Part shown: one piece after another, positions 14,877-55,844 of the stretch | How positions within the stretch are numbered: the first letter of the stretch is position 1 | How the letters are laid out: every line of letters begins with the position of its first letter | Source of the DNA: Verrucomicrobiia bacterium | GTDB lineage: Bacteria; Verrucomicrobiota; Verrucomicrobiia; Limisphaerales; DASXHY01 | Direction of reading: 5' to 3' | Assembly: GCA_035552155.1 (NCBI GenBank) | Contig: DASZLX010000018.1 | Coordinates: 391,600-455,599 of the forward strand | DNA: 64,000 nt | Program-made: the position numbers and the translations under genes | The notes under the pieces: model-generated | What the model was told of the DNA's origin: nothing | Database searches by the model: none | Seen by the model: only the letters and a program-made list of their open reading frames with translations

Positions 14877-14900
14877 ACGGAATTAAGAAGTTCAACCACA

Positions 14901-38652: not shown

Positions 38653-38671
38653 CCCACCCGAAAGAGGGATG
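38653..38671 (+). promoter_or_regulatory. 19-nt motif CCCACCCGAAAGAGGGATG, 51 nt upstream of the start codon
   Basis: An exact copy on the opposite strand lies at 50336-50354, at a comparable distance upstream of another secreted-protein gene. Confidence 0.5.
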
Positions 38672-38722
38672 AATCGTTTCCCGGGATTCTCCAAGCTATT
38701 CAGAAATCCGTCATAGCCTGTT

Positions 38723-41335
38723 ATGTCCATGAAAGCGGCCCGTTTTAAATTGATACCGGGCCGCGCACTTGCCAGGCATGTTGGGCGCGGATTTTTATCG
38801 CTGGCGGTTCTTGCCGGTTGGCTCGGCACTTTTGCAATTCACGCTCAAGTCATCAATTTCGACGTCCCCGGCGGCGCGGGTGCGGTCAATTATTCCGGCC
38901 CCGGCGCCTGTCCTGATCCCAGTAATAATTATTGGAACCCGGTGAAAGGCGGAGGAACGACGGCGGCGACAAATCGATTGTCGGATGGAATTACCGCCAG
39001 CGCGATCACCTTGACTTCCCAGTATGGCGGCACGTTCGGCACTCAAGGAAGCCAGGGCACGCCGGCGGCATTGCAATCACCCTACCAATATAACAATGCG
39101 ATCCGCCGGACCAATACGCTCAACAATGTCCCGCCCGGAACCTACAACCTCTACCTTTACAGCATCAACAATCTCGGGAACCGCGGCACGACGTTTTCAG
39201 TTTTCACCACCGCCACACCGGCGATGACTCTCAGCACTTCCAACACTCCGGCCAGCCTTAATACGTTCATCAACGGAGCGGATTATGTCGTGTTCAGCAA
39301 CCTAGTTTTAACGATGACGGGGACGATTGCTTTTACCTGGACCGCCAATCCGAATGTGGCGCTCGCCGGAAATAATGAAGGCGATTTCAGCGGACTGCAA
39401 CTGGTGCTCGTTTCCACCGACACGGATGGCGCCGCTCCCAATTTCGGGCCAAACGTGCTGATTTTCGATCCCTCGATGGGGTCGTCCGCCATCCAGAGCC
39501 AGATGGATCCCGTGTTTTCGGCGCAACACAACAGTCAATTCGGCGCCGGGCGTTTTGCCTACCTTTTTAAGCCCGGCCAATATACGAACCTGGATGTCAA
39601 TCTTGGCTATTATATGCAGGTGCTCGGGCTTGGACAAATGCCCGATGCGGTCACAATTACCGGCGATGTTCATTCAGATGGAGTTCTCGCCAATCACAAT
39701 GCCACGACCACTTTTTGGCGCGCGTGCGAAAACTTTGCCGTGACGCCCACGAACGCAGGCGCGAGCCTCCTCGAAGCCAATAACACGATGACCTGGGCGC
39801 AGTCGCAGGGGGCATGGATGCGGCGCATGCACATCAAGGGGAGTATCAATCTGGCCAACACCAACAGCGGAGCTTATTCGAGCGGCGGTTACCTGGCGGA
39901 TTCCAAAATAGATTCCACGATCAATTCGAAGACCCAGCAACAGTGGATTTCCCGAAACGACATTTGGAAAACGTGGTCCGGGCAAAATTGGAACATGGTT
40001 TTTGTGGGTGTTTCCAACCCGCCCTCCGGAACGTGGCCCGGTTCAAAATTCACCGTCATTACCAACGCGCCTTTGGTGCGCGAAAAGCCGTACCTGGCTC
40101 TCGATAATAACAGCAACTTCGTGGTCATGGTGCCGAATCTCCAGACCAACCGCATCGGCACGACCTGGAGCGCCGGTTTGACGCCGGCCACTTCCGTGCC
40201 CATCAATCAGTTTTATACCGCGCAACCCGTGCTCGATAATGCGGCCACCATCAACGCCGCGCTGGATGCCGGCCTGAATATAATTTTTACTCCCGGCGTT
40301 TATCAGCTTACCAACACCATTTTTGTGACGCGGCCGGACACCATTATCATGGGACTCGGATACCCGACGCTCATACCCGCAAATGGAAAGGTCACAATGC
40401 AGATTGCCGATGTCGACGGCGTCACAGTGAGCGGTTTGATATTCGATGCGGGAACAACAGCCTCGCCGGCATTGTTGCAGGTCGGGACCAGCGCTGGAAG
40501 CGTGCGGCACTATTCCGATCCCATATGTATTTATGACATTTCCAGCCGGGTGGGAGGACAATTCGTCGGCACGACCACAAATTGCATGACCATTTACGCC
40601 AATGATGTGCTGGCGGAAAATTTATGGCTCTGGCGCGCGGATCATGGCGCGGGTTCCAGCCCCGCGTGGATCGGCAATCCCAGCTCCACCGGCCTGGAGG
40701 TGGATGGTGATAATGTTACCATTTACGGTTTGTTCTGCGAGCATCACGAGAAATTTCAGACGATATGGAACGGTAATTGGGGCCGGGTCTATTTCTACCA
40801 ATCCGAGTTGCCCTATGACGCTCCGTCACAAACCCTGTGGTCGCACGACGGCGTCAACGGTTATGCCTCCTACAAAATCGCCGACTCAGTCACCAGCCAT
40901 CAGGCTTACGGGCTGGGCGTCTATGGAGTTTTTAATAATTCCACCGCGAAGTGCTTCAACACGATCGAAACTCCAACGACTACCCCGCAAGTCAACGTGC
41001 ATAACATGATTAACGTTTACATCACCGGACAGGCGGGCAGCGAAATGACGCATATTATCAACGGGACTGGAAACACACTCACGACGGGCGTGACGACGAC
41101 CACCGCGAATTATCTTTGGCAGAATCCCGGCTTCGCATTGGAGACCTTTTCGAGCGGAACGAATCTTAACCTTCTCTTGCCGACGGAATCCTGGCGGTCC
41201 TATCACGTACAATATAAAAACAATCTGACGGACCCGACGTGGCTGCTCCTGAGCAACGTTCCGGGAAACGACACATTGCAATCGATAGTCCTTTCGACCC
41301 CTTTCAGTAACCGCTTCTACCGCGCGACCTACTGA
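38723..41335 (+). CDS. Secreted right-handed beta-helix (pectate-lyase-fold, two-lobe, GH55-like?) glycosidase-like protein with an N-terminal beta-sandwich and a C-terminal '...FYR' module
   Basis: Signal/anchor LSLAVLAGWLGTFAIHAQ. The two lobes show FAYLFKPGQYTNLDVNLGYYMQVLGLG and LNIIFTPGVYQLTNTIFVTRPDTIIMGLGYPTL (pectate_lyase_3-like), plus WLWRADHG and LFCEHHEKF. The C-terminus reads WRSYHVQYKNNLTDPTWLLLSNVPG...SNRFYRATY. The family assignment is uncertain. Confidence 0.6.
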   Translation: MSMKAARFKLIPGRALARHVGRGFLSLAVLAGWLGTFAIHAQVINFDVPGGAGAVNYSGPGACPDPSNNYWNPVKGGGTTAATNRLSDGITASAITLTSQYGGTFGTQGSQGTPAALQSPYQYNNAIRRTNTLNNVPPGTYNLYLYSINNLGNRGTTFSVFTTATPAMTLSTSNTPASLNTFINGADYVVFSNLVLTMTGTIAFTWTANPNVALAGNNEGDFSGLQLVLVSTDTDGAAPNFGPNVLIFDPSMGSSAIQSQMDPVFSAQHNSQFGAGRFAYLFKPGQYTNLDVNLGYYMQVLGLGQMPDAVTITGDVHSDGVLANHNATTTFWRACENFAVTPTNAGASLLEANNTMTWAQSQGAWMRRMHIKGSINLANTNSGAYSSGGYLADSKIDSTINSKTQQQWISRNDIWKTWSGQNWNMVFVGVSNPPSGTWPGSKFTVITNAPLVREKPYLALDNNSNFVVMVPNLQTNRIGTTWSAGLTPATSVPINQFYTAQPVLDNAATINAALDAGLNIIFTPGVYQLTNTIFVTRPDTIIMGLGYPTLIPANGKVTMQIADVDGVTVSGLIFDAGTTASPALLQVGTSAGSVRHYSDPICIYDISSRVGGQFVGTTTNCMTIYANDVLAENLWLWRADHGAGSSPAWIGNPSSTGLEVDGDNVTIYGLFCEHHEKFQTIWNGNWGRVYFYQSELPYDAPSQTLWSHDGVNGYASYKIADSVTSHQAYGLGVYGVFNNSTAKCFNTIETPTTTPQVNVHNMINVYITGQAGSEMTHIINGTGNTLTTGVTTTTANYLWQNPGFALETFSSGTNLNLLLPTESWRSYHVQYKNNLTDPTWLLLSNVPGNDTLQSIVLSTPFSNRFYRATY

Positions 41336-43904: not shown

Positions 43905-45344
43905 CTATGCTTGAGGAAGCACCAGTGTCATGATGGAATGCGCCGGGCTTTGGGATTTCGCCTCCTTGTCGTCCATCCAGAGATAGAACGGCTGGGCTTT
44001 GGCGGTCGAATTCATAACGATGACAACGATGTTTTTGTCGTTATTCAAAAACGCCGTGGTGATCAAGTTATCCGTGGTTGAGGAACTGACAATCCTGCGG
44101 GCGCCCGGCCGGACGAATTTGGAAAAGTGGCCGATGTAATAATACGAATTCATGTAATGAAGCGCGCCGGTTTTGGTGTCGCCGTGAATGGGAGCGAAAC
44201 AGAAATTTTGCACGTGATTGGGGCCGCCCTCCTGATCGAGCAACACGTTCCAGTCCGTCCAACCGACGGCGCCGTTGTTGAAATCGTTGACCATTGATTT
44301 TCCGTAATTCTCGCCCCATTTCCAGTCGTCGATGGTCGCGGAATCATACGGGCCGTTGCAGCCTTCGGTGAAGAGAAGATGGGTGTTCGGAAAGGCTTGT
44401 TGGACCATTTTGACATTTTCAAAATGATCGCCCACGTACCAATGATACCCCACCCCCCAGACAAACCGGGCGGCTTCCGGGTCTTCCAGAACCACCGCGG
44501 CGCGCTGATACATGAGACTGCGGTTATGGTCCCAAATCACGATATTTTTTTTCGCGAGACCGTCCTTCGCGAAGGTGGGTCCGAGATAGTTTTTTACGAA
44601 GTCCCGCTCCTCTTCGGCGGTGTAGATGCACGATTCCCAGGTCTGGATGGCCATGGGCTCGTTTTGAACGGTCATTCCCCAGATGGGCACGCCCTGTTTT
44701 TCGTAGGCCTTGATGAATTTGGCGCAATAATTTGCCCAAGTGCCGTAATATTCCGGTTTCAATTTTCCACCGTGCAGCATGTCATTATTATCTTTCATCC
44801 AGGCGGGCGGACTCCAGGGGCTGGCGAAAATCGTGAAATTATTCGCGCCGGCAGTCGCGAGGATTTCCTTGATGAACGGGATTCGATATTTCAAGTCGTG
44901 GCTGATGTCGAAGCTGTTCAGGGATGTGTCCCCATTTTTCACGTAGGTGTAGCTTTCGCTGGAAAAATCGCAGCTATGGATATGGGTGCGGCCCAGGGAG
45001 TAACCGATGCCTTTTTCAGGGTCAAAATAGGCCTGCAGGATCTCCTGCTGTTTGTCCTTGGGCAGTTTATAAAATGTCTCAGCCGCTGCGTCGGTCAACG
45101 CGCCGCCCACGCCCAACACAGTCTGGTAGGTTTTGGAAGCGTCGACAAATATCGTCTCCTGCTTCTCGCCTGGCTGCGGCATGGCGACAAAGCTCAAATC
45201 GGCCGCCCGGGATAACTTTTGGCCGGTGTCTTTTGCCGTTATGTAGACTTTGATCGAAGCCCCGGATTGCTCAGCCGCATAGGCGGTGGAAAAAGATGCG
45301 ATGGCGAGCGCAATCAATATTTTCGAGTGGATATGTTTGGTCAT
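43905..45344 (-). CDS. Glycoside hydrolase family 30 (glucosylceramidase-like O-glycosyl hydrolase)
   Basis: Signal peptide MTKHIHSKILIALAIASFSTAYA. Motifs YQTVLGVGGALTDAAAE, FASPWSPPAWMKDN and IWGMTVQNEP (acid/base Glu context). Confidence 0.9.
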   Translation of the reverse strand: MTKHIHSKILIALAIASFSTAYAAEQSGASIKVYITAKDTGQKLSRAADLSFVAMPQPGEKQETIFVDASKTYQTVLGVGGALTDAAAETFYKLPKDKQQEILQAYFDPEKGIGYSLGRTHIHSCDFSSESYTYVKNGDTSLNSFDISHDLKYRIPFIKEILATAGANNFTIFASPWSPPAWMKDNNDMLHGGKLKPEYYGTWANYCAKFIKAYEKQGVPIWGMTVQNEPMAIQTWESCIYTAEEERDFVKNYLGPTFAKDGLAKKNIVIWDHNRSLMYQRAAVVLEDPEAARFVWGVGYHWYVGDHFENVKMVQQAFPNTHLLFTEGCNGPYDSATIDDWKWGENYGKSMVNDFNNGAVGWTDWNVLLDQEGGPNHVQNFCFAPIHGDTKTGALHYMNSYYYIGHFSKFVRPGARRIVSSSTTDNLITTAFLNNDKNIVVIVMNSTAKAQPFYLWMDDKEAKSQSPAHSIMTLVLPQA

Positions 45345-45465: not shown

Positions 45466-46365
45466 TTATTTATGAACAGAGGAATGCTCCATCAACCAAT
45501 CGATGTCCCCAATCCCCGCCACGGCCGGACAGGCGGCAGCGTTAGGCGGGAGCGGTCCCTGGAATTTTATCAAATTTGCGTCCCGCCACTTATGTATTTC
45601 ACTGTGCCCATCGGCAAAGCTGAACCCTCCGGCGTTATTATGATAGGTGGCCGGCTTGTCCACCCAACTTTGAGAGGCGTTATCCGAGCAGAACCAGCCG
45701 TCATTGATGCTCCAGGGATTCTCATCCAGGACTACGAAACAATTTGCCGCTCCCATGGGAATGAGGTCCGCCTGTTTTCTGAATATCCTATAATTGGCGT
45801 TGAGCGGTGCCGTGCTTTTCACAATGCTGTCCACAATGGGAGCCAGATAGCCATTCATGGACATGCTACGCACCGTTGGTTTATCGGTGGCGCCCGGCGG
45901 CACGCTTAGTCCAAAGAAAGCCGTTCTTAAATCGGCCGGACATTTGAACAACTGAATGTTTGGAGCATAAAGGTACATCAATCCGGCCTTCACCAAGTCC
46001 GTATTTTGCGCCGCCGTAGGTTGAGTTATGTCTCCATAGACCCACTGATTTTCCGGATTTCCCGGGTCGGTATAGGGGTTGGGAAGGAGGCTGACTTGAA
46101 GCGCACCCTGCCCCACCGTGGGCATGAATTTGGAGTTGTTATCGTCCGAGTACATGAGCCAGGCCAGACCCATTTGCCGGAGATTGTTCATGCACTGCGT
46201 GGCTTGGGCCCTCGTTTTAGCCTTCGCGAGCGCCGGCAACAGCATGGCCGCCAGAATCGCGATGATGGCGATAACCACCAAAAGCTCGATCAAGGTGAAA
46301 CCCGCATTTCTGGACGATGAGCCCGATGAGGGTCCGCGGAGCGAATCTGTCTTTGTTTGCATCAT
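45466..46365 (-). CDS. Prepilin-type N-terminal cleavage/methylation domain protein (PVC-type pseudopilin-like, DUF1559/H-X9-DG class)
   Basis: [31 protein letters not shown] is a class-III signal with the prepilin peptidase site. The C-terminal [15 protein letters not shown] is the H-X9-DG-like motif. Confidence 0.85.
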
Positions 46366-46455: not shown

Positions 46456-49400
46456 TTATTGCACCTGCACGCGATAGAACCGTGAGCTGTTCACAATCGG
46501 ATTCGTGACCCATTGCGTTCCGTTGTTACCCGGCACAGTGCTGAACACATTCCAGGTCGCATCCGTCAGGTTGGTCTTGTATTGGAGTTGATAATTCCAA
46601 CCCGAGAGCGTCGGGAATGAAACAACCAGATTCGTGCCGGACAAGGCGGCGTTCGCCGACATTATCGGCACCAGCATCATATAGTTCACGTTGACATCCG
46701 GGGTGGTAGGATTGTCCAAGGGCCTGATCAGCTCCAGTGTGTTGGTAGAGCCGTTAAGTGTCACCGTGGCGAGATTGCCCGAGGCATCCCGCATTGGAAC
46801 ATATTGATAGGTGCCCCAACCGAAGGTATTCGGGATGTTAAACGATCCCAGGAGGTTGGTGGTCTGGGCCGTCGTGCCCCAGCCGCTCGTGACTTCCGCA
46901 AGGTTTGCATCGGTGCCTACCGAGGCTGTCGCAAAGCGGCCATAGACATAGTAGGTTCCGGCAGGATAGTTCCTGGTATAGTTACACCAGGCACCATTGC
47001 TGAAGAATCCGATGCTGCCATCCACCTGAGGGTTGGTGGGATCCTCGAATTGCGGTCTCGGCACGTCGCCGCTCGGACCGTTGTCTTCACCTGAGGTGCG
47101 GTAACTATACGTACCGCCGAAGTTGACCTGAACTGTATCCACACCTGCCACCGCACCCAGGCCGGCGTAAGCATTCGTTTGTGGATTATCGAAGAACTGG
47201 CCGCCGTCATGGTCGTAATCCTCCGCTTCCCAGGTGTAGTTGTTCGGGTTGACGGTATCAAACGTCGCCGTGGAGCTGGATGAATTGCCGTTCACGTCCG
47301 TGACTGTCGCCACGATGGTGTAGATTGAATTCGGCAACAGATGCGGATAGGTAACGTTCCAATTGTTGATGTTACCGGTGATCACCAGGTTTGAAACTGT
47401 CGTTCCATTGACCGTCACCACAATTTCGTTCGAAGCAACGCCGGAGCTCGATTGAACATTGAAGCTGAACGTATTGGTTAACTGCGTTCCGGTGACCGGG
47501 AAGACCCCGTTCAAGGTAGGCAGATTTGTGTTCGCCGGGAAGAACGCATAGAAGTTCGCGTTCAAGCTGCCGCCGCTGGTGACCCGGAGCGTCTCGACCG
47601 AGCCGCCGGTGAATTTCACCAGGTTGCCGCCGGAATCCCGCAGAGGCGTCCAATTATAAGCCTGCCAGTCGCCCGTGGGGTTCTGGGTAAACGTTCCTAT
47701 GTTCGTCGTGGTCTGGGTAGGAGTGCCAATTCCGCTGGTCACCTGGGCCAGAGTAGCCACGCCTGAGCCGGTGCCGCCGTCGGCGCCGCGCAGATAAATA
47801 TTATATACGCCGGCCGGGAAGGTCCGGGTATAATTATTCCACTCACCGCCATCATACCAACCCAGGTTGTAGTCGGTGAGCGAGTTCGTGACATATTGCA
47901 ATCTCGGAGCATCACCATTGCCTTGGTCCGCGGTGGTGCCGGTGCGATAAATGAAGGTTTCTCCGTTATCTACGATGTTATGAGCGTCTTCACCTTCAAT
48001 TCCGGACAAGTTGGCATAAGCATCGGGCGCCGGATTGTCGATGAATGAACCACCGTTATAATCGTAATCTTCCGCTTCCCACGTGAACACCGGGCTGAGT
48101 GTATCGAACTTAACCGATGTCGCCGCCGGACTTCCGTTGGCGTCGATGACACTGATGCTGGCCGTGTAGACCTCGTTGGAGAGCAGCGCGAGGCTGACGG
48201 TCCGGTTCGTGGACTGGCCACCGAAGCTCAAGCCATTGGTCGCGGTGATATTGGTGGCGAATCCAATTCCCAACAGATTGGTTACCGTGAGCCGCACCGA
48301 GATGCTGTTGGTGTTAATATTCACGCCCGACGGGGAACTCGCCACGAAGGTGAGCGTCGGGAAAGGCTGGAACATATTAGTTCCGTTGGGATAAACGCCG
48401 CTGATAGCAGGCAGATTGGTGTTCGCCGGCGTCAACATGAAGAAGTTGAGGTTTCCGCCGCCGCTGGTTCCCGCTGTAAGACGGACTGTGTTCGTGCTGC
48501 CGTTGAACTGGACCCGGGCGAGGTTGCCGCCGGAATCGCGGAGAGGCACCCAGGAAAATCCGTCCCAGCCGCCCGAGTTCGCCATGGTAAACGTGCCCAG
48601 GTTAGTCAGAGTTTGCGCCGTCGTGCCCCAACCACTGGTGACCAAATCAAACGAGTCGTTCAATGTGCCACCGCCGTCCGCGACTCGCAGAAAGACGTTA
48701 TAATTGCCGGCTGGAAAATTCCGGGTGTAGTTCATCCAGTTTGGCAGACCGCTTCCGGAGCCGCCGTCATAATATCCGACGTTCACATCGCGGGCGATGT
48801 TAGTGACGGCAAACGCATCCAAAACTTTCTGCCGCATAAGCTCGCCAATGGAATTGCCGCCGTTATTTCCGGTGCCCACACTGAATTCGGTTTCTACCAG
48901 CTCGAAGGGATCGCGATAGATACGACTGGGACCGGCGGTGTTACCATTGTCGTTTGCGTCCGTTATATTCACGTAGGGGGTCTGTTCCTGGTAATACGTG
49001 TTAACGTCAGGCCCGACAAAGCTCATCACCGGATTGTCGATGAAGAGGCCGCCGCCGAAGTCGTAGTCTTCAGCTTCCCACGTGTAATTGGTCGGGTTAA
49101 AAGCGTCGTAAACGTAAAGGTTGGTGGCGACAACGCCCGCGTTATCCGTCACCCGAATACCGATACTAACCCCGTCGAGATTGGTTTGCTGAATGAGAGT
49201 GGGATTAATGGGCAATCCGGTGTAACTCACATTCATCGACGTGGACGATCCGCCGATCGACAGGCTCGATGAAACATCCGCTCCGTTCACCGTCACTTTG
49301 ATATTGCCTGCAGTAAGGCCGTTCGTGGAACTCGCGGTGAAGGACAGAGTATTGGTGCCGCATTGCAAAACCGAGCCGTCGGGGGTCAAATTGGAAATGA

Positions 49401-50289
49401 CCACAGGAATAGCCTGCTGACGCACATTCTCAATAAAGCTTGCGCTGCCAGCGCCGGTGTAAAACCGGGCATCGTCGATCCAACCAATGAAATCGCGCGG
49501 ATTGCCGTGAATGGTATTGCCGATCGCGGCACTTGCCAGGCCGCTGAGATTAACGGTGGTCCCCGCCGGCACGCTTCTGACCGCGTACAACTTAGCCGGG
49601 CTGGCTTCTGTACCATAATAGATATAGGCATTCTGGGCCGTACTGTCATACACGAGAGCGGCGAACAGCCAGACATTCGTCGGAAAATCATAATAAACCG
49701 GTGGAGAAATACGCGTCGCGCCAACGAAACCATTGATGCAGATCAACGGGCTTCCGGGCTGCGTGACAGCGGAACGTCCGCTGAGTTGCAGACCGAGACT
49801 CAGGGCATTGTTGACGTCTGTCGTCCCATTGGTGGCCAGGAGGAACAAACGCGAGCCTTGATTGGAAAGGTTGGTGAACAGGTTGGGCATTTTAAACCAA
49901 ATGGTCATCGTGAAGTCGCTGACCGCACCCAGATTTGCCAGTGTCGCATCCCCGGCTTTGTAGGCAAAGGCGCCGCCGGCAACATTTCCGGCGATGGGAT
50001 TCGTATGCAGGTCCAGCGCCACGCCCTGGTTTTGCACTCCTGAGTTGGCGAGGCCATGAAGATCTCCGGGAGTGGTGGCATCGCCATTTACCATATTCAG
50101 AACCACCGGTAGCGCGCCGCTGCTGGTAATCGTCGTTCCAGGTCCGTCCTCGAAATTATAGCGTAATTGAAGCGTTTGCGCTTGCGCTGGAAGCGCGCAG
50201 AGAAGAGCGCAAAGAAAGGCCAGGGCGGCCAGGAGTAGTGGGGCTTGTTTAGTTTTCACAATCTTGATTGGATGGTTTTTGCGTTTCAT
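46456..50289 (-). CDS. Giant secreted LamG + 3x(Ig-like + CBM6/35-like) protein with a C-terminal '...FYR' module (1,277 aa)
   Basis: ATG 50289 gives MKRKNHPIKIVKTKQAPLLLAALAFLCALLCALPAQAQ. LamG/concanavalin-like region at 49423-50175 (FTMTIWFKM...WIDDARFY). Three modules each begin an ...(Y/F)TWEAEDYD(F/Y/H)(G/N/D)GG.F(I/F)DNP... CBM and contain ...NYTR.(F/Y)PAG.Y.(V/I)(F/Y).R and ...PLRDSGGNL. The C-terminus reads GWNYQLQYKTNLTDATWNVFSTVPG...SSRFYRVQVQ. Confidence 0.85.
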   Translation of the reverse strand: MKRKNHPIKIVKTKQAPLLLAALAFLCALLCALPAQAQTLQLRYNFEDGPGTTITSSGALPVVLNMVNGDATTPGDLHGLANSGVQNQGVALDLHTNPIAGNVAGGAFAYKAGDATLANLGAVSDFTMTIWFKMPNLFTNLSNQGSRLFLLATNGTTDVNNALSLGLQLSGRSAVTQPGSPLICINGFVGATRISPPVYYDFPTNVWLFAALVYDSTAQNAYIYYGTEASPAKLYAVRSVPAGTTVNLSGLASAAIGNTIHGNPRDFIGWIDDARFYTGAGSASFIENVRQQAIPVVISNLTPDGSVLQCGTNTLSFTASSTNGLTAGNIKVTVNGADVSSSLSIGGSSTSMNVSYTGLPINPTLIQQTNLDGVSIGIRVTDNAGVVATNLYVYDAFNPTNYTWEAEDYDFGGGLFIDNPVMSFVGPDVNTYYQEQTPYVNITDANDNGNTAGPSRIYRDPFELVETEFSVGTGNNGGNSIGELMRQKVLDAFAVTNIARDVNVGYYDGGSGSGLPNWMNYTRNFPAGNYNVFLRVADGGGTLNDSFDLVTSGWGTTAQTLTNLGTFTMANSGGWDGFSWVPLRDSGGNLARVQFNGSTNTVRLTAGTSGGGNLNFFMLTPANTNLPAISGVYPNGTNMFQPFPTLTFVASSPSGVNINTNSISVRLTVTNLLGIGFATNITATNGLSFGGQSTNRTVSLALLSNEVYTASISVIDANGSPAATSVKFDTLSPVFTWEAEDYDYNGGSFIDNPAPDAYANLSGIEGEDAHNIVDNGETFIYRTGTTADQGNGDAPRLQYVTNSLTDYNLGWYDGGEWNNYTRTFPAGVYNIYLRGADGGTGSGVATLAQVTSGIGTPTQTTTNIGTFTQNPTGDWQAYNWTPLRDSGGNLVKFTGGSVETLRVTSGGSLNANFYAFFPANTNLPTLNGVFPVTGTQLTNTFSFNVQSSSGVASNEIVVTVNGTTVSNLVITGNINNWNVTYPHLLPNSIYTIVATVTDVNGNSSSSTATFDTVNPNNYTWEAEDYDHDGGQFFDNPQTNAYAGLGAVAGVDTVQVNFGGTYSYRTSGEDNGPSGDVPRPQFEDPTNPQVDGSIGFFSNGAWCNYTRNYPAGTYYVYGRFATASVGTDANLAEVTSGWGTTAQTTNLLGSFNIPNTFGWGTYQYVPMRDASGNLATVTLNGSTNTLELIRPLDNPTTPDVNVNYMMLVPIMSANAALSGTNLVVSFPTLSGWNYQLQYKTNLTDATWNVFSTVPGNNGTQWVTNPIVNSSRFYRVQVQ
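46666..49410 (-). repeat. Three tandem coding copies of an Ig-like + CBM module (48424-49410, 47530-48414, 46666-47523)
   Basis: Protein-level repeat of about 290-330 aa, with diverged DNA. Boundaries come from residue counting in the translation. Confidence 0.8.
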
Positions 50290-50335
50290 AGTGGGAGCCA
50301 GCCTCATTACGATACCTGCTTTGTAAAATCAGCCA

Positions 50336-50354
50336 CATCCCTCTTTCGGGTGGG
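50336..50354 (-). promoter_or_regulatory. Second exact copy of the CCCACCCGAAAGAGGGATG motif (minus strand), 46 nt upstream of ATG 50289
   Basis: The plus strand reads catccctctttcgggtggg. It lies in the 135-nt divergent region shared with the histidine kinase gene. Confidence 0.5.
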
Positions 50355-50424
50355 TATACGTGATTAAATGCTAATGATATGATTCGCTCTCGACTTTCAC
50401 GACGTTCGTGCTTTGATTAAAACT

Positions 50425-52704
50425 ATGTTTCTGGCCAGGAAACTCGCCGGGCTCACGCTGCTGACGACTGCGCTCCTGCTTTCCACGAGCGGGATTTCGA
50501 CCGGGGCCACCGCCGAGGTTTTGACGAATGCCGCCGATATCCTGGCCCTCTCGCCCGAGCGCGCTTCAGACTCCATCTCAGTATCCATTACCGGCGTCGT
50601 CACCGCCGCCGAACCCAATTGGGGCGGTCGGTTTTTTGTGCAGGACGCCAGCGGCGGAGTATTTGTCAACAGCGTCGATGGGGCGCCGCCCAGCCCGGGA
50701 GACATCGCGACGGTTGCTGGAATTACCACCCCGGGCGGTTATGCGCCGTGTATCGACAAGCCGCACTGGATGAAATCAGGCACCGGTCCCATGCCGAAAG
50801 CGAAGGTCCCCACCATCGAACAATTCATGACGGGAAATGAAGACAGTCAGCGCATCGAATTGTCCGGCATCGTCAGATCCGCTTCCACGAATATCGATCG
50901 GCTGAGCGTGGAATTAGTCTCGGGCGCTTATCGCTTTCGCGCGCACTCGCCGATTCCGCCCGGCGTAAATCCCCAGAGCCTGGTTGGCGCCCGAGTCCGC
51001 ATCCGCGGCACGGCAGCAGTATTTTTCAACGCCACTTTAAGACGTTTCCTCACCATCGTTCTTTATGCTCCTTCGGTTTCTGATTTCATCATTGAACAAC
51101 CGGCTCCCGCGAATCCTTTCGATGACCCGCTGATCCCGCTGAACGCCACCGCGCAATACCGCAACCGGCCGTCGCCGTCGGGCCAGGTCCACGTCCGCGG
51201 ATTAGTCACGTATCAAAGGCTCGGCGAAGATTTGTTTCTTCAGGATGACACCGGCGGGTTGCAGATCAAATGCCCCGATGCCGCGGCATTTTCGCCGGGC
51301 GACATTGTCGAGGCGGTTGGATTTCCCGGCGTTCAAAATTTCCTGCCCGTCCTTGAAGACGCCATTTTGCGGAAATGCCCCGGCGGACCCGCCCTCGTGC
51401 TGCCCAACAACGTGCCCATGGCCCAATTGCAAATGGGTTTGCACAATGCGGAGCTGATTATGCTCCAAGGCAAGCTGCTGGATCGCCAGACTGGCCATGC
51501 CAAAACATCCGCCGGCAGTCTCCTCGGCCCCCGCACAGTGCTGGTCATCCAAACCACCAACCTCGTATTCACCGCGGAAGACAATGCGACCGCCGCCGAT
51601 TCTTTTTTATCCTCCATCCCCATTGGCAGCACCATCCTGGTGAGCGGCGTTTGCCTCCTGCAAAGCGCCGAGGACGGCAAAACAAAATCCATTCAACTAT
51701 TGCTTCCCTCTTCCGCCAACGTTCGCATTCTCGCCAGCCCGGGCTGGCTTACGCCGCAACATTTATTGGTGACCCTCGCCGCAGCCCTGATGGTCATCCT
51801 GATCGGTTCAACCTGGATCATCATGGCGTTAAAAAGAAACACCGCCCTGCGGCAATTGATTTACGAGCGCGAACTGGGCCGCAAGGAACTTCAGAAAGCC
51901 CACGACTCGTTGGAACAACGCGTCAAGGAACGCACGCGGCAGTTGAAAGTGCAAATCACCGCGCGCAAAGAAGCCGACCTGCAATCCAAAGCAGTCCTCA
52001 GCGAGCGCACGCGTCTGGCCAAGGAGTTGCACGACACCATCGAGCAAACCATGACGGGCGTCACGCTCCAACTCAATGCCGTGGCCAAGCTGCTCGAGCA
52101 AAATCCCGAAACCGCCGGCCGCCATCTTGGCCTCGCGCGGAATATGGTCCGGACAAGCCGCGTGGATTTGCGCCGATCCATTTGGGATTTGCGCACGCGG
52201 GAGCTGGAGCAATTCGACCTGGCCGGCGCGTTGTTGCTGAGTGGAAATCAAATTGCCGACGGCGCCAACATCGGCGTTAAAATTGAAACCGGAGGCACGG
52301 CGCGGTCGTTGCCCGAAATCATGGAGGAAAATATTCTTCGGATAGGTCAGGAAGCGATCACCAACGCGGTCAAGCATTCCGGAGCCACTCAACTGCGTCT
52401 GGGACTTGATTTCCACGAGCAAAATGTCGTCCTAACCATCAAAGACAATGGAAACGGATTTACTCCGGACAACTGCCTCGGGCCGAATGAAGGTCATTTT
52501 GGACTGCTGGGCATGTCGGAAAGGGCCAAACGGTTGGTGGGCACTCTCACCATCGAGAGCGCGCCGGGAACGGGAACGACCATCACCGTTGATATCCCAA
52601 CCGAGGAAATGACAATCCGCCGCGCCGTCATCGCCGGGCAAACTGGCGAATCGATGGAAACAGACCATGAAGAAAACATCCCCGATACGGATCCTTGCCG
52701 CTGA
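50425..52704 (+). CDS. Sensor histidine kinase (HisKA_3/NarX-class) with a ~430-aa periplasmic sensor region
   Basis: ATG 50425 gives MFLARKLAGLTLLTTALLLSTSG. A second TM helix (LLVTLAAALMVILIGSTWIIMAL) is followed by a coiled coil, the HisKA_3 H-box RTRLAKELHDTIEQTMTG, and HATPase motifs (ITNAVKHSGA; DNGNGF; GHFGLLGMSERA; GTGTTI). Confidence 0.9.
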   Translation: MFLARKLAGLTLLTTALLLSTSGISTGATAEVLTNAADILALSPERASDSISVSITGVVTAAEPNWGGRFFVQDASGGVFVNSVDGAPPSPGDIATVAGITTPGGYAPCIDKPHWMKSGTGPMPKAKVPTIEQFMTGNEDSQRIELSGIVRSASTNIDRLSVELVSGAYRFRAHSPIPPGVNPQSLVGARVRIRGTAAVFFNATLRRFLTIVLYAPSVSDFIIEQPAPANPFDDPLIPLNATAQYRNRPSPSGQVHVRGLVTYQRLGEDLFLQDDTGGLQIKCPDAAAFSPGDIVEAVGFPGVQNFLPVLEDAILRKCPGGPALVLPNNVPMAQLQMGLHNAELIMLQGKLLDRQTGHAKTSAGSLLGPRTVLVIQTTNLVFTAEDNATAADSFLSSIPIGSTILVSGVCLLQSAEDGKTKSIQLLLPSSANVRILASPGWLTPQHLLVTLAAALMVILIGSTWIIMALKRNTALRQLIYERELGRKELQKAHDSLEQRVKERTRQLKVQITARKEADLQSKAVLSERTRLAKELHDTIEQTMTGVTLQLNAVAKLLEQNPETAGRHLGLARNMVRTSRVDLRRSIWDLRTRELEQFDLAGALLLSGNQIADGANIGVKIETGGTARSLPEIMEENILRIGQEAITNAVKHSGATQLRLGLDFHEQNVVLTIKDNGNGFTPDNCLGPNEGHFGLLGMSERAKRLVGTLTIESAPGTGTTITVDIPTEEMTIRRAVIAGQTGESMETDHEENIPDTDPCR

Positions 52705-53296
52705 CGATCATTTTATTGTTCGGATGGGTTTGACGGCAATGGTCAACATCGAACCGGACATGGAAATTGTGGCCGAAGCCTCCGATGGCGCCGAGGCCAT
52801 CGCGCTGTTCACGAAATTCAATCCCGACGTCACGTTGCTGGACGTGCGGATGCCGGCCATCAACGGCATCGAAGTTGCCGCCGCCATTCGCAGGCAAAAC
52901 GAGACCGCGCGCATTTTGATGCTCTCGGCCCTGAACGGCGACGAGGATATTCATAAGGCGCTGGAAGCCGGCGCGGCCGGTTATGTCCTGAAGAATGCCA
53001 CGGAAGAAAAACTCATTCCCGCCATCCGCGCCGTCGCCGCCGGACAACGCTGGATTCCGCAGGATGTGGCCAATCGCCTTTGGTCGCGGCGCTTGTTCCA
53101 GGAACTCACCGCGCGCGAATTGCAGGTGCTCAACAAGCTCATCAAGGGCATGGCCAACAAGCAAATCGCCCATGCGATGAACATCAGCGAAAATACGGTG
53201 AAAGGATTTCTGAAAAATATTCTCGCCAAACTTCACGTGGCTGATCGAACGGAGGCGGTAGCCGTGGCCATTCAGCGGGGCCTGATTCAACTTTAG
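52667..53296 (+). CDS. NarL/LuxR-family response regulator
   Basis: IRILAADDHFIVRMGL, DVTLLDVRMPAINGIE, ILMLSAL, and the HTH LTARELQVLNKLIKGMANKQIAHAMNISENTVKGF. It overlaps the kinase gene by 38 nt. Confidence 0.9.
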   Translation: MKKTSPIRILAADDHFIVRMGLTAMVNIEPDMEIVAEASDGAEAIALFTKFNPDVTLLDVRMPAINGIEVAAAIRRQNETARILMLSALNGDEDIHKALEAGAAGYVLKNATEEKLIPAIRAVAAGQRWIPQDVANRLWSRRLFQELTARELQVLNKLIKGMANKQIAHAMNISENTVKGFLKNILAKLHVADRTEAVAVAIQRGLIQL

Positions 53297-53348: not shown

Positions 53349-55205
53349 ATGACGAGCATTCTCGGCATCTCCGCTTTTTACCATGACAGCGCCGCGGCGC
53401 TCGTGGTGGATGGCCGGATCGTCGCGGCGGCGCAGGAGGAGCGATTTACTCGGCGCAAGCATGACCCGGATTTTCCGAAACACGCCGCCGAGTATTGCCT
53501 GCGCGAAGCGGGCTTGGAATTGGGCGAACTGGACTACGTCGTTTTTTACGAAAAGCCGCTCCTGAAATTCGACCGACTGCTGGAGACCTATTTCGCCTTC
53601 GCGCCAGCCGGCTTCGCGAGTTTCCGCGAGGCGATGCCTTTATGGCTGCGCGACAAATTATATTTGCGCCGCAAGTTGCGCGCCGAATTGAAAAACGCAA
53701 AGCGGGCGCGTTTTATTTTCACCGAACACCACGAGAGCCATGCCGCTAGCGCTTTTTTTCCCAGCCCATTCGAGGATGCGGCCATCCTGACGGTGGATGG
53801 CGTCGGCGAATGGACCACCGCCACGCTCGGGGTCGGCGAGGGGAATCGCCTCCGGCTTTTGCGCGAGCTGAAATTTCCGCACTCGCTCGGCCTGCTCTAT
53901 TCCGCGTTCACCTATTATTGCGGCTTCAAAGTGAACAGCGGCGAATACAAATTGATGGGCCTCGCGCCCTACGGACAACCGCGGTTTGCTGATGCCATTC
54001 GTAAACACCTCCTGGACCTCCGGCCGGACGGCAGTTTTCGGATGAACATGGATTATTTCAATTACTGCCAGGGCCTGACCATGACCAACGAACGGTTTCA
54101 TGGTCTCTTCGGCGGCCCACCGCGTGCGCCCGAATCGCAGTTGGAACAACGCCACATGGATTTGGCGGCCAGCATCCAGGTAGTCAGCGAAGAAATTTTC
54201 ATCGCCATGGCTCGGGAACTTCATCGGCTCACGGGCAAAAAGAATCTCGTGCTCGCTGGCGGCGTGGCGCTCAATTGCGTGGCCAACGGACGCTTGCTGC
54301 GCGAAGGGCCTTTTTCAGACTTCTGGATTCAACCCGCCGCGGGTGATGCGGGCGGCGCGCTTGGGGCGGCGCTTTTCGTCTGGCATCAATTGCTCGAAAA
54401 ACCCCGCCGCCCCGCTTCGGTCGATTCGCAATCCGGAAGTTTTCTCGGCCCGCGATTTTCCGACGACGAAGTCGACCAGGCGCTGCAGACGCGTTCGCTG
54501 CCGGGTCGGCGATTTGATGACGAAGAGGCGCTATTGAAGCAAATTGTGGAGGCGCTGGAAGATGGGAAGGTAGTAGGATGGTTTCACGGCCGGATGGAAT
54601 TTGGCCCGCGCGCGCTCGGCGCGCGCAGCATCCTGGGCGACGCCCGAAATCCCGCGATGCAAGCCGTGATGAATTTGAAGATCAAATACCGGGAAAGCTT
54701 CCGCCCGTTCGCTCCCTGTATTTTGCGCGAGCGCGCCGCGGATTACTTTGCCCTGCCCCGGCACATTGAAAGTCCCTACATGCTGCTCGTCGCTCCGCTG
54801 CTGGAACGGCATCGCACACCACTTTCCGACGCGCAGCGCGGCACGATGACCAATGATCCGGACCTGCGCCAGCGCGTGAATGTGGCGCGCTCGACTGTGC
54901 CGGCCATTACTCACGTCGATTACAGCGCGCGTATTCAAACCGTGGACGAGGAACGACACGGCCGTTTTTATCGCCTGCTGAAAATGTTCGAGGAACGGAC
55001 CGGTTGCCCGATGCTAGTGAACACCAGCTTCAACGTGCGCGGCGAACCCATCGTGTGCACCCCCGACGACGCAATACGCTGTTTCCTTGCGACCGACATG
55101 GACCTGCTGGTGCTGGAAAATTTCATTGCGGACAAACAACAAGTGACACGCCTGCCTTCCGCGGCGGAAAAAGCCGGGCATCTCGCAGCCTTTCAACCCG
55201 ATTGA
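53349..55205 (+). CDS. Carbamoyltransferase (NodU/CmcH family)
   Basis: MTSILGISAFYHDSAAALVVDGRIVAAAQEERFTRRKHDPDFP, HHESHAASAFF, LAGGVALNCVANG, and the C-terminal YrdC/Kae1-like part NTSFNVRGEPIVCTP. Confidence 0.9.
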   Translation: MTSILGISAFYHDSAAALVVDGRIVAAAQEERFTRRKHDPDFPKHAAEYCLREAGLELGELDYVVFYEKPLLKFDRLLETYFAFAPAGFASFREAMPLWLRDKLYLRRKLRAELKNAKRARFIFTEHHESHAASAFFPSPFEDAAILTVDGVGEWTTATLGVGEGNRLRLLRELKFPHSLGLLYSAFTYYCGFKVNSGEYKLMGLAPYGQPRFADAIRKHLLDLRPDGSFRMNMDYFNYCQGLTMTNERFHGLFGGPPRAPESQLEQRHMDLAASIQVVSEEIFIAMARELHRLTGKKNLVLAGGVALNCVANGRLLREGPFSDFWIQPAAGDAGGALGAALFVWHQLLEKPRRPASVDSQSGSFLGPRFSDDEVDQALQTRSLPGRRFDDEEALLKQIVEALEDGKVVGWFHGRMEFGPRALGARSILGDARNPAMQAVMNLKIKYRESFRPFAPCILRERAADYFALPRHIESPYMLLVAPLLERHRTPLSDAQRGTMTNDPDLRQRVNVARSTVPAITHVDYSARIQTVDEERHGRFYRLLKMFEERTGCPMLVNTSFNVRGEPIVCTPDDAIRCFLATDMDLLVLENFIADKQQVTRLPSAAEKAGHLAAFQPD

Positions 55206-55209
55206 CACC

Positions 55210-55623
55210 ATGGGACTGATTGTTTTTCAAACCAAACCGACCGCACGCGTGCTGCGGCAATTCGCGGGAGCGTGGCTGGTATTTTTTCTCGCGCTGGCAG
55301 CGAACCAGACCTGGCGGCGCGGGCATGTTCCGGCGGGAATCGCGCTGGGCATCGTGGCACTCATCGGCATTGTGGGCCTGATCCAACCGAAATCGATGCG
55401 CCTGCTTTTCATTGCCGCGTCCGCTGCCGCGTTTCCGATTGGATGGCTCGTCAGCCAGATTATGCTGTTGCTGATGTTCTACGGCGTGATGACTCCGGTG
55501 GCATTTTTCTGGCGCCTGCGCGGGCGGGATACGCTCCAGTTGCGCGCGAAACCGGATCAATCCAGCTTTTGGATTGACCGCCAGGAGGAGCCGAAGCCTG
55601 AACGATACCTGAAACAATTTTGA
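55210..55623 (+). CDS. SxtJ-family membrane protein
   Basis: 137 aa with 3-4 TM helices and LRQFAG near the N-terminus. The 4-nt gap after the carbamoyltransferase and the DUF5989 gene that follows form the widely conserved trio. Confidence 0.65.
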   Translation: MGLIVFQTKPTARVLRQFAGAWLVFFLALAANQTWRRGHVPAGIALGIVALIGIVGLIQPKSMRLLFIAASAAAFPIGWLVSQIMLLLMFYGVMTPVAFFWRLRGRDTLQLRAKPDQSSFWIDRQEEPKPERYLKQF

Positions 55624-55634
55624 GACCTTCCACT

Positions 55635-55835: not shown

Positions 55836-55844
55836 ACACCGCCC

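What the first reader, a model, noticed from the sequence alone, without database searches (positions are those of the whole stretch)
38653..38671. Exact 19-nt motif CCCACCCGAAAGAGGGATG upstream of two secreted-protein genes
The 19-mer occurs at 38653-38671 (+), 51 nt before ATG 38723 of the beta-helix protein gene. It occurs again at 50336-50354 (-), 46 nt before ATG 50289 of the LamG/CBM giant gene. The flanks show no similarity, so this is a discrete element rather than a duplicated region. Back-of-envelope: about (6.4e4)^2 position pairs against 4^19 sequences, well under one expected exact 19-mer match in 64 kb. Both copies are intergenic, in the sense orientation and similarly spaced from the start codon. 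Both downstream proteins carry the same C-terminal '...FYR' module. The second copy lies in the divergent region shared with a histidine kinase/NarL-regulator pair. It could be an operator, a specialised promoter element or a 5'-UTR element (CCC-GAAAGA-GGG can form a small stem-loop).
Basis: seen in the sequence. Interest (0 to 1): 0.6.

Follow-up and report, generated by a model that had tools for sequence, protein, structure and literature searches.

The report
Response-regulator binding site for glucanase promoters
The repeated 19-base motif is most likely the DNA docking site of the neighbouring two-component response regulator, sitting just upstream of the core promoter of two beta-glucan-degrading gene sets in a soil Verrucomicrobium; this is an ordinary kind of switch, but not described before in this little-studied phylum.

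Summary
CCCACCCGAAAGAGGGATG occurs exactly twice in the window (38653-38671 +, 50336-50354 -), and nothing else comes within 3 mismatches; shuffles expect 0.03.

It is not a dispersed repeat or an RNA element. Three lines of evidence make it a cis-regulatory DNA site tied to the adjacent HisKA_3 histidine kinase (50425-52704) and NarL/LuxR-type response regulator (52667-53296).

- **Conservation.** In eight orthologous intergenic regions averaging 65% identity, the motif is the only long invariant block. It is 19/19 identical even in Opitutaceae-like loci whose kinase is 40-47% identical. It always lies in the divergent region next to the kinase and points away from it.
- **Paralogue variants.** Paralogous kinase-regulator loci with the same gene architecture carry variant, mostly palindromic sites at the same place. 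The variant tracks the regulator's recognition helix, including a prospective 3/3 test.
- **Promoter position.** A -10-like hexamer (nAnnnT, mostly TAnnnT) lies 20-21 nt downstream in 22 of 23 sites and 19 nt in the other. No -35 hexamer is present. This puts the site at about -52 to -34, the position of a class II activator.

The targets are a GH55 exo-beta-1,3-glucanase gene and a LamG/CBM6-pseudopilin-GH30 operon. Binding and the transcription start are inferred, not shown.

Verdict: a new member of a known kind, of moderate interest.

The parts
38653..38671 (+). Site copy 1: 19-bp putative response-regulator binding site upstream of the GH55-like gene.
   Evidence: Exact match. It is 19/19 conserved in the orthologous loci L004 and L012, while the surrounding intergenic region is 83% identical.
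38692..38697 (+). Predicted -10-like hexamer CAAGCT (nAnnnT), 20 nt after site copy 1. Predicted transcription start near 38704.
   Evidence: Offset analysis. A at position 2 and T at position 6 are kept in L004 (CACACT) and L012 (CAAGCT). Inferred; no transcription-start data.
38723..41335 (+). Target gene 1: secreted GH55-type exo-beta-1,3-glucanase (beta-helix) with an N-terminal extension and a C-terminal RFYR module.
   Evidence: Residues 240-793 match SacteLam55A structures 4pew/4pex with E 3e-133. Orthologues are marked PF27525 LAM55_pectate-like. ATG 38723 is conserved in L004 and L012.
50336..50354 (-). Site copy 2: the same 19-bp site, in the divergent region between the kinase operon and the LamG/CBM6 operon, pointing towards the latter.
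   Evidence: Exact match. 17 of 19 positions are invariant in 8 orthologous regions with a mean column identity of 65%. It is found with 0-2 mismatches in 3 of 3 lineages fetched through the kinase protein alone.
50309..50314 (-). Predicted -10 hexamer TATCGT, 21 nt after site copy 2. Predicted transcription start near 50302.
   Evidence: A TAnnnT at offset 20/21 in all eight orthologues, although the hexamer sequence itself differs. Inferred.
46456..50259 (-). Target gene 2: giant secreted LamG/CBM6-repeat protein with a C-terminal RFYR module. The start is taken as the conserved GTG 50259.
   Evidence: Translation. The GTGAAA block is invariant in 8 orthologues, whereas the upstream ATGs are not conserved or not in frame. 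Orthologues carry Laminin_G_3 and CBM_6 hits.
45466..46365 (-). Prepilin-like N_methyl/DUF1559 protein. Probably the same operon as target gene 2.
   Evidence: Pfam N_methyl and SBP_bac_10. NCBIfam hits to GspG-like pseudopilins fall below their cut-offs. Synteny is conserved in L005, L020, L021 and L025-L031.
43905..45344 (-). GH30 glycoside hydrolase (glucosylceramidase / beta-glucosidase-like). Probably the same operon.
   Evidence: Pfam Glyco_hydro_30 with E 2e-75. Closest solved relatives are SrfJ and GBA. In Opitutaceae locus L003 the GH30 orthologue is the first long ORF (start 98 nt) downstream of the site, in sense.
50425..52704 (+). Sensor histidine kinase: HisKA_3 + HATPase_c, with a periplasmic part made of four OB-fold domains.
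   Evidence: Pfam. Translation and start. AF2 model with pLDDT 80 and Foldseek hits to tandem OB folds. The orthologue sits next to the site in L003, L007, L015, L020, L021 and L024.
52667..53296 (+). NarL/LuxR(GerE)-type response regulator, the proposed protein that binds the site.
   Evidence: Pfam Response_reg + GerE. VraR/NarL are the closest solved relatives, E 1e-38 to 1e-36. The recognition helix ISENTVKGFLKNIL is identical in the other four Pedosphaerales-type loci read (L015, L020, L021, L024); L003 and L007, which carry the same site, have ISENTVKDHLK[HN]IL.
53349..58745 (+). Genes co-directional with the kinase-regulator pair, separated by gaps of 52 nt or less: carbamoyltransferase, two small ORFs, and a GH30+CBM6 endo-beta-1,6-glucanase-like protein with an RFYR tail. 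Possibly one operon read from the same divergent region.
   Evidence: ORF layout. Pfam. NCBIfam best hit is the BT3312 endo-1,6-beta-glucanase model, below its cut-off. L024 has the same order. Operon membership is inferred.

Best explanation
The 19-mer is the DNA binding site of the NarL/LuxR-type response regulator encoded at 52667-53296, the partner of the OB-fold-sensor histidine kinase at 50425-52704.

**Proposed mechanism**
1. The kinase senses a periplasmic signal, probably a beta-glucan oligosaccharide. This step is inferred.
2. The kinase phosphorylates the regulator.
3. A regulator dimer binds the 19-bp site, which spans about -52 to -34 (centre near -42.5) of two promoters. These promoters have a -10-like hexamer but no -35 hexamer.
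4. The bound regulator recruits RNA polymerase, as a class II activator does.

**Promoters controlled**
- A GH55 exo-beta-1,3-glucanase gene (38723-41335).
- The LamG/CBM6 giant protein - pseudopilin-like - GH30 operon (50259 down to 43905).
- Possibly, in the opposite direction, the kinase-regulator operon itself, which ends in a GH30+CBM6 gene.

**Shown here**
- Sequence conservation of the site.
- Linkage of the site to the regulator pair.
- Regulator-specific site variants.
- Fixed spacing to a -10-like hexamer.

**Inferred**
- Binding itself.
- The sign of regulation.
- The transcription start.
- The signal.
For: 1. **Not chance, not dispersed.** There are 2 exact copies and no near copies in 64 kb, against 0.03 expected. 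In the scan of 185,579 representative genomes, the only contig with two exact copies is one from a related Verrucomicrobiia MAG (DATAZE010000006.1). Both copies sit at the orthologous positions.

2. **Footprint-like conservation.** In 8 orthologous divergent regions (65% mean identity), 17 of the 19 motif columns are invariant. This is the only long invariant run apart from the GTG start. Copy 1 is likewise conserved in L004 and L012.

3. **Unbiased sampling.** In loci fetched through the kinase protein alone (66-71% identity), the site is present in 3 of 3 lineages with 0-2 mismatches: ACCACCCGAAAGAGGGGTG, ACCACCCGAAAGAGGGATG and exact.

4. **Linkage over long distances.** In Opitutaceae D2-102 (L003: kinase 40%, regulator 60% identity) and in L007 (47% and 59%), the exact 19-mer again lies beside the kinase start, pointing away from it. 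It lies upstream of a GH30 gene in one and a TonB-receptor-like gene in the other.

5. **Paralogue-specific variants.** Paralogous kinase-regulator loci with the same architecture carry variant sites at the same place, several of them clear palindromes:
   - CCCCCTCTAAAGAGGGATG
   - ATCCCTCGAAATAGGGATG
   - CCACCCCTCCAAGGAGGGGTGG
   - CCCACCCGAAAGAGTGGTG

   Second sites of the same variant occur in the same locus in L025, L026, L029 and L030.

6. **Recognition helix tracks site type.** Helices ...TVKG[F]/D[H]LK... go with GAGGG[AG]TG. Helices ...TVKW[HY]LK... go with GAGTGG[TC]G in 5 of 5 loci; three of these were read after the rule was stated. Helices ITE[NH]TAK go with a CCCTC left half.

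7. **Promoter geometry.** An nAnnnT hexamer lies 20 or 21 nt after the site in 22 of 23 sites, and 19 nt after it in the other. Fifteen of the 23 are TAnnnT. The hexamer sequences themselves have diverged. Away from offsets 19-21, no two-offset window exceeds 10 of 23. The later loci L029-L031 also fit. No sigma-70-type -35/-10 pair is found in either region.

8. **The regulator is a bona fide REC+GerE protein.** Its closest relatives are VraR and NarL.
Against: - No binding, expression or transcription-start data exist; all of this is comparative inference.
- The window's own site is only weakly symmetric. Three to four of eight pairs are complementary, and the repeat finder reports no inverted repeat. 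This is unusual for a homodimeric GerE-type protein.
- Invariance of 19/19 across families, central GAAAG included, is stricter than most operators show. It hints at an additional constraint.
- In L006 the kinase-regulator pair is deleted yet the site is intact. This may simply be a recent deletion.
- The helix-to-site correlation rests on few independent evolutionary events.
- The copy 1 hexamer (CAAGCT) is a poor -10.
- Overlap with the -35 region would also suit a repressor.
Confidence: 0.8

Rival explanations
1. Same protein and same site, but the regulator acts as a repressor. By sitting over the -35 region it blocks RNA polymerase until the signal removes it.
For: The site's 3' edge falls at about -34 and so overlaps the place of a -35 hexamer. 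Such overlap is also typical of repressors.
Against: No -35-like hexamer exists to be occluded (the sequence after the site varies between loci). A promoter without a -35 normally needs an activator. Most NarL-family regulators with a site centred near -42 activate (general knowledge).
Confidence: 0.12
2. The motif is read by a different factor, and the neighbouring regulator is linked only by synteny. Candidates are an alternative sigma factor using it as an extended -35 element, or an unrelated global regulator.
For: - The site is strongly asymmetric and is invariant over all 19 positions, more like a sigma/promoter element than a dimer operator.
- The site persists in L006 without the kinase-regulator pair.
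- The exact 19-mer also occurs in actinobacterial contigs that lack this kinase.
Against: - Site variants change together with the regulator's recognition helix in paralogous loci.
- No sigma factor gene is linked.
- The downstream hexamer is of the housekeeping TAnnnT type.
- A spacing of 20-21 nt is too long for a -35/-10 pair.
- The actinobacterial copies sit next to a GerE-type HTH gene, which points to this protein family again.
Confidence: 0.06
3. The motif is a transcribed 5'-UTR element: a small CCC-GAAAGA-GGG hairpin, a CsrA-like GGA site, or a Shine-Dalgarno-like standby site that controls translation or stability.
For: - The 19-mer alone can form a 3-bp stem (-4.6 kcal/mol, z -1.9).
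- AGGGAUG resembles the ARGGAUG core of CsrA sites, and GAAAGAGG is Shine-Dalgarno-like (own knowledge).
- Both copies are in the sense orientation.
Against: - Both leader regions fold worse than their shuffles (z +1.0 and +1.2).
- Rfam has no match.
- Orthologues conserve sequence, not pairing.
- The distance to the start codon varies widely (51, 76, 98 nt), while the distance to the -10-like hexamer is fixed. This puts the motif upstream of the likely transcription start.
- The linkage to the regulator gene and the paralogue-specific variants have no explanation on this view.
Confidence: 0.03
4. The motif is a chance repeat, or a fragment of a generic dispersed repeat or mobile element.
For: A handful of exact matches in unrelated contigs fall inside long ORFs or in low-GC DNA: L001, L009/L017, L018 and L010/L016. 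That is about the number expected by chance in collections of this size.
Against: - Shuffles expect 0.03, against 2 observed.
- Both copies are conserved at orthologous positions in several genomes, while their flanks diverge.
- There are no flanking repeat structures.
Confidence: 0.01

Closest known systems
NarL/NarP '7-2-7' operator sites of E. coli (inverted TACYYMT heptamers)
   Same: - The regulator family is the same: REC + GerE HTH with a HisKA_3 kinase partner.
- Half-sites are C-rich and G-rich in inverted orientation. Paralogous sites such as CCCTCT-AA-AGAGGG in L025 look very much like a 7-2-7 site.
   Different: - The sequence and spacing differ. There is a central GAAAG, and the half-site cores are about 6 nt apart.
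- The window's own site is a hybrid of two half-site types (CCACCC on the left, GAGGGAT on the right), not a true palindrome.
- The signal and regulon are unrelated: glycan degradation rather than nitrate respiration.
LuxR lux box (20-bp dyad centred at -42.5 of the luxI promoter), the textbook class II site of a GerE-type HTH activator
   Same: - The DNA-binding fold is the same.
- The size is about 19-20 bp.
- The inferred centre is near -42.5, replacing a -35 hexamer (the lux box position is from my own knowledge).
   Different: The regulator here is a phosphorylation-controlled response regulator, not an acyl-homoserine-lactone receptor. There is no sequence similarity to the lux box. The position here is inferred from a -10-like hexamer, not from a mapped start.
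DevR/DosR, VraR and LiaR operators (NarL-family regulators whose promoter-proximal site overlaps the -35 region)
   Same: VraR is the closest solved relative of the regulator, with E 2e-38. Both involve activation from a promoter-proximal site and autoregulated two-component operons (own knowledge).
   Different: The consensus sequences and the stimuli are different (hypoxia or cell-envelope stress). Autoregulation here is only a possibility, suggested by the divergent layout.
Hybrid two-component systems and SusR/ECF regulators of Bacteroidota polysaccharide utilisation loci
   Same: The logic is the same: many paralogous sensor-regulator units, each next to its own glycan-degrading gene cluster.
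   Different: The proteins are unrelated: a classical two-protein system with an OB-fold sensor and a GerE HTH, rather than a one-protein hybrid with an AraC output. The loci have no SusC/SusD pair. Instead they have a giant LamG/CBM6 protein and a pseudopilin-like protein.

Membership tests
Operator of a NarL/FixJ (GerE-HTH) response regulator | A cognate REC+GerE regulator (with a HisKA_3 kinase) is encoded next to the site. | tested here: met
   Pfam Response_reg + GerE and HisKA_3 + HATPase_c. NarL, NarP and VraR are the best matches. Site copy 2 ends 70 nt from the kinase start codon.
Operator of a NarL/FixJ (GerE-HTH) response regulator | The site-regulator linkage is conserved in other genomes, and the site is more conserved than its surroundings. 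| tested here: met
   - L003, L007, L015, L020, L021 and L024 all have the site beside the orthologous kinase-regulator pair.
- 17 of 19 columns are invariant in an alignment with 65% mean column identity.
Operator of a NarL/FixJ (GerE-HTH) response regulator | Two half-sites with dyad symmetry, for a dimer. | tested here: inconclusive
   - The window's site has only CCC-N6-GGG plus scattered symmetric positions, and the repeat finder finds no inverted repeat.
- Paralogous sites at the same position are clear palindromes: ATCCCT-N6-AGGGAT, CCCTCT-AA-AGAGGG and CCACCCCTCC-AA-GGAGGGGTGG.
Operator of a NarL/FixJ (GerE-HTH) response regulator | Site sequence changes together with the recognition helix among paralogues. 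| tested here: met
   Four helix types match four site types. The W-type helix predicted GAGTGG[TC]G in 3 of 3 newly fetched loci. The number of independent events is small.
Operator of a NarL/FixJ (GerE-HTH) response regulator | Direct, phosphorylation-dependent binding of the regulator to the site. | not testable with these tools
   Needs EMSA, footprinting or ChIP.
Class II (-35-overlapping) activator site | Centre near -41.5/-42.5 relative to the transcription start, a weak or absent -35, and a recognisable -10. | tested here: inconclusive
   - An nAnnnT hexamer lies at a fixed 19-21 nt after the site in 23 of 23 sites.
- No -35/-10 consensus pair is found.
- The transcription start itself is not mapped.
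E. coli-type NarL 7-2-7 heptamer site (TACYYMT-N2-AKRRGTA) | Heptamer consensus and a 2-bp spacer. | tested here: not met
   - Read from the sequence, copy 2 is preceded by TA, giving TACCCAC. Copy 1 has CTCCCAC.
- The right half AGGGATG does not match AKRRGTA.
- The spacing is different.
- The consensus itself is from my own knowledge.
Structured 5'-UTR RNA element / riboswitch | A stable conserved secondary structure, covariation, or a match to a described family. | tested here: not met
   - Rfam gives no hit at gathering threshold.
- Leader folds are no better than shuffles, z +1.0 and +1.2.
- Orthologues are invariant, so there is no covariation.
Dispersed repeat (REP/MITE-like) | Many copies, in varied contexts, with flanking repeat structure. 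| tested here: not met
   - There are two copies in the window.
- There are two on the related MAG's contig, both at orthologous positions.
- There are no flanking inverted repeats.

The most novel reading that the evidence does not exclude
The window's site is one 'word' of a so far undescribed regulatory code in Verrucomicrobiota.

- Hundreds of paralogous kinases with an OB-fold sensor, each paired with a GerE-type regulator, each sit next to a glycan-degrading cluster: a giant LamG/CBM6 protein, a pseudopilin-like protein and glycoside hydrolases.
- Each pair reads its own 19-22-bp C-tract/G-tract site at about -42.5. This would be a functional counterpart of the Bacteroidota hybrid two-component / PUL system.
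- The hybrid, asymmetric type I word (CCACCC + GAGGGATG) is held 19/19 across families. It even recurs next to a GerE-type gene in Actinobacteria. This suggests a portable regulator-operator module, or a second reader of the same DNA.
Probability: 0.45. Interest if true: 0.6.

Novelty: new member of a known kind. Interest (0 to 1): 0.42.

Why it matters
Almost nothing is known about how Verrucomicrobiota, major polysaccharide degraders in soil and water, switch their glycan-degrading genes on.

This finding gives a concrete, testable regulator-operator pair and a predicted regulon: a GH55 exo-beta-1,3-glucanase, GH30 enzymes and a LamG/CBM6 giant protein. These point to beta-1,3/1,6-glucans such as laminarin or fungal cell wall.

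It also gives a simple rule for finding other regulons of the paralogous systems in uncultured genomes. The rule is the site type, followed by a -10-like hexamer 20-21 nt downstream.

The kind of mechanism itself, a NarL-family regulator binding near -42, is textbook.

Tried and rejected
- **Rfam.** A scan of the whole window at gathering threshold found nothing. A scan of the actinobacterial loci at E up to 1 also found nothing.
- **RNA folding.** Neither leader folds better than its shuffles, so the hairpin idea was dropped.
- **Upstream ORF from the motif's ATG.** It is in frame with the LamG gene in L005. In the window it runs into a stop. For copy 1 it gives a 15-codon ORF that is not conserved in L004 (read). 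Rejected.
- **CsrA-like (ARGGAUG) or Shine-Dalgarno-like (GAAAGAGG) reading.** Not supported. The site keeps a fixed distance to the -10-like hexamer, not to the start codon, and the CCCACCC half is conserved just as well.
- **Promoter and repeat scans.** The sigma-70 -35/-10 scan found no promoter in either region. The inverted-repeat search around both copies found none.
- **Weaker or half-site copies in the window.** Searches for GAGGGRTG, AGGGATG, CCACCCG and CCC-N-AAA-N-AG-N-G found only intragenic or isolated hits apart from the two sites.
- **The third RFYR-tail gene (55845).** It has no site of its own. It may instead belong to the kinase operon.
- **Exact-match hits in unrelated contigs.** L001, L009/L017 and L018 lie inside long ORFs, and L010/L016 are low-GC DNA. 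All were set aside as chance.
- **Literature.** The 19-mer appears in no held paper. Two topic searches found nothing on regulation of such loci.
- **Not possible.** A whole-genome scan of the source genome could not be run, because only the 64-kb window and the fetched loci are held.

Full report
**1. Observation**

CCCACCCGAAAGAGGGATG is present exactly at 38653-38671 (+) and 50336-50354 (-). No third site has up to 3 mismatches. Dinucleotide shuffles expect 0.03 matches, and none of 100 shuffles reached two. Both copies are intergenic and in the sense of the downstream gene. The flanks of the two copies are unrelated.

The window is a Verrucomicrobia-type glycan-degradation region. It holds GH95, GH97, GH36, GH30 and GH9 enzymes and prepilin-like N_methyl/DUF1559 proteins. 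The source contig is annotated 'Verrucomicrobiae bacterium' (P0001).

**2. The downstream genes**

- The product of 38723-41335 matches the GH55 exo-beta-1,3-glucanase SacteLam55A over residues 240-793, with E 3e-133. Its orthologues carry PF27525 LAM55.
- The product of the gene ending at 46456 is a LamG/CBM6-repeat giant (orthologue Pfam hits). A pseudopilin-like gene and a GH30 gene follow it on the same strand.
- Both proteins share a roughly 60-aa C-terminal ...RFYR module, and so does the GH30+CBM6 protein of 55845-58745.
ATG 50289 is ATC in L005, and ATG 50307 is out of frame there. A GTGAAA block at 50259 is invariant in eight orthologues. The motif-to-start distances are therefore 51 and 76 nt, not similar.

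**3. Distribution elsewhere**

The exact 19-mer was searched in 185,579 representative genomes and in the metagenome collection. The hits fall into four groups.

- Orthologous positions in relatives: L004 and L012 for copy 1; L005, L006, L013 and L015 for copy 2.
- Two distant Verrucomicrobia: Opitutaceae D2-102 (L003) and L007.
- One actinobacterial lineage: L002, L008, L011, L014 and L019.
- A few hits inside long ORFs or in low-GC DNA, which fit the number expected by chance.

The only contig in the representative-genome scan with two exact copies belongs to a related MAG, DATAZE010000006.1. Both copies sit at the orthologous places. The motif is therefore not a dispersed repeat.

**4. Linkage to one two-component system**

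Copy 2 ends 70 nt from the start (ATG 50425) of a HisKA_3 kinase. A REC+GerE regulator follows the kinase, and its closest relatives are VraR and NarL.

In L003 the kinase is 40% and the regulator 60% identical; in L007 they are 47% and 59% identical. In both, the identical 19-mer again lies in the divergent region beside the kinase and points away from it. It points towards a GH30 gene in L003 and towards a TonB-dependent-receptor-like gene in L007.

To avoid the bias of searching with the motif itself, I fetched loci through kinase homologues alone. In 3 of 3 orthologous lineages (66-71% kinase identity) the site is there with 0-2 mismatches.

An alignment of eight such divergent regions has 65% mean column identity. 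In it, 17 of the 19 motif columns are invariant, the only long invariant run besides the start codon. Copy 1 behaves the same way in its three orthologues.

**5. A family of sites**

Kinase paralogues (53-60% identity) sit in the same architecture: giant secreted protein, pseudopilin-like protein and glycoside hydrolases, transcribed divergently from the kinase-regulator pair. In a Pedosphaera MAG three such units stand in tandem.

At the same place they carry related but distinct sites:

- CCCCCTCTAAAGAGGGATG
- ATCCCTCGAAATAGGGATG
- CCCCCTCCAAAGAGGGATG
- CCACCCCTCCAAGGAGGGGTGG, a 10-2-10 palindrome
- CC[CT]ACCC[GT]AAAGAGTGG[CT]G

Several loci have a second site of their own type upstream of another gene in the cluster: L025, L026, L029 and L030. 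This mirrors the two copies in the window.

The regulators' recognition helices sort the same way:

| Recognition helix | Site feature |
|---|---|
| ISENTVK[GD][FH]LK | GAGGG[AG]TG |
| ISENTVKW[HY]LK | GAGTGG[TC]G |
| ITE[NH]TAK | CCCTC left half |

After noting the rule, I fetched three more loci whose regulators have the W-type helix. All three had GAGTGGTG sites. The number of independent evolutionary events is small, but this pattern is what a regulator-operator pair predicts. A sigma element or an RNA motif would not predict it.

**6. Position in the promoter**

I anchored 23 sites on the motif: orthologues, paralogues and the actinobacterial copies. An nAnnnT hexamer lies 20 or 21 nt after the site in 22 of them and 19 nt after it in the last. 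Fifteen are TAnnnT.

The hexamers themselves have diverged (TATCGT, TAGTGT, TAAGGT, TAGGAT, TACGGT, TAAAAT, GATTAT and others). Away from offsets 19-21, no two-offset window exceeds 10 of 23. L029-L031 fit as well.

No -35 hexamer can be found. If the hexamer is the -10, the site spans about -52 to -34 with its centre near -42.5. That is the position of class II activators such as LuxR at the lux box (own knowledge). Predicted starts are near 38704 and 50302. This step is inference.

**7. RNA reading rejected**

Rfam gives nothing. The leaders fold no better than shuffles, with z +1.0 and +1.2, and the motif alone forms a 3-bp stem. Orthologues conserve sequence, not pairing. The distance to the start codon varies while the distance to the -10 does not.

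**8. Caveats**

- The window's site is only weakly symmetric. It looks like a hybrid of the two half-site types seen in the paralogues: CCACCC on the left and GAGGGAT on the right.
- Its 19/19 invariance across families is stricter than usual.
- In L006 the kinase-regulator pair has been deleted, leaving about 70 nt of the kinase ORF, yet the site is intact.
- The sign of regulation, the signal and autoregulation of the kinase operon are all inferred.
- The kinase's periplasmic part is predicted as four tandem OB folds (pLDDT 80). That is compatible with oligosaccharide binding but does not prove it.

**9. Verdict**

This is a real, discrete cis-regulatory DNA element. Most likely (about 0.8) it is the binding site of the adjacent NarL-type response regulator, acting at two, possibly three, promoters of a beta-glucan-degradation regulon.

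It is a new member of a known kind of element. I found no description of it in the held literature. Interest is moderate. It gives a first handle on glycan-gene regulation in Verrucomicrobiota, and it exposes a large paralogous regulator-operator family.

Noticed in passing
L002 5020-5038, L008 9019-9037, L011 43-61, L014 5643-5661, L019 1756-1774: High-GC actinobacterial contigs carry the identical 19-mer in an intergenic region.
- A small stand-alone GerE/LuxR HTH gene (43% identical to the regulator's HTH) ends 46-50 nt upstream.
- A (G/C)AGGAT hexamer lies 20 nt downstream.
- A membrane HD-GYP protein gene starts about 65 nt downstream.
- Extra half-sites CATCCCT and CCCACCCCCG flank the motif.

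The promoter layout is the same in another phylum. Whether this reflects transfer or convergence is open.
   Followed up: partly
window 50425-51750 (kinase residues about 30-440): The periplasmic sensor part of the histidine kinase has no Pfam domain. It is predicted (pLDDT 80) as four tandem OB-fold domains resembling HIN200/RPA arrays, which is an unusual sensor architecture. More than 800 homologues have E at or below 1e-30.
   Followed up: partly
L027 (Pedosphaera sp. JAQGPA010000083.1) 1-17000; also L020, L025, L026, L028-L031: A repeated locus architecture: a giant secreted LamG/CBM6 protein, a prepilin-like N_methyl/DUF1559 protein and GH30/GH5/GH55 enzymes, transcribed divergently from a kinase-regulator pair. 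Three such units stand in tandem in L027, each with its own palindromic site variant.
   Followed up: partly
window 41150-41335, 46456-46640, 58560-58745: A C-terminal module of about 60 aa ending ...RFYR is shared by three secreted glycan-active proteins. It has no Pfam or NCBIfam match. It may be a sorting or anchoring domain.
   Followed up: no
L006 8275-8505: In this metagenome contig the kinase and regulator genes are deleted. Only the first 70 nt or so of the kinase ORF remain, fused to the region before the carbamoyltransferase gene. The 19-mer and the LamG gene are intact.
   Followed up: partly
window 53349-55836: A carbamoyltransferase gene and two small membrane-protein ORFs (SxtJ-like and DUF5989 in orthologues) are conserved directly after the regulator gene. 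In the window and in L024 a GH30+CBM6 endo-beta-1,6-glucanase-like gene follows them. The role of a carbamoyltransferase in this cluster is unclear.
   Followed up: no
window 50398-50410 (+): A small hairpin (CACGACGTTCGTG) followed by a T-rich run lies immediately before the kinase start codon. It sits within a block conserved only among the closest relatives (W, L005, L006, L013, L015).
   Followed up: no
window 17917-18600 (-) and 18719-21499 (+): A second NarL-type regulator is transcribed divergently from a GH9 cellulase-like gene. Its recognition helix (ISIKTVEKHRQQV) differs, and the 118-nt divergent region has no copy of the motif.
   Followed up: partly
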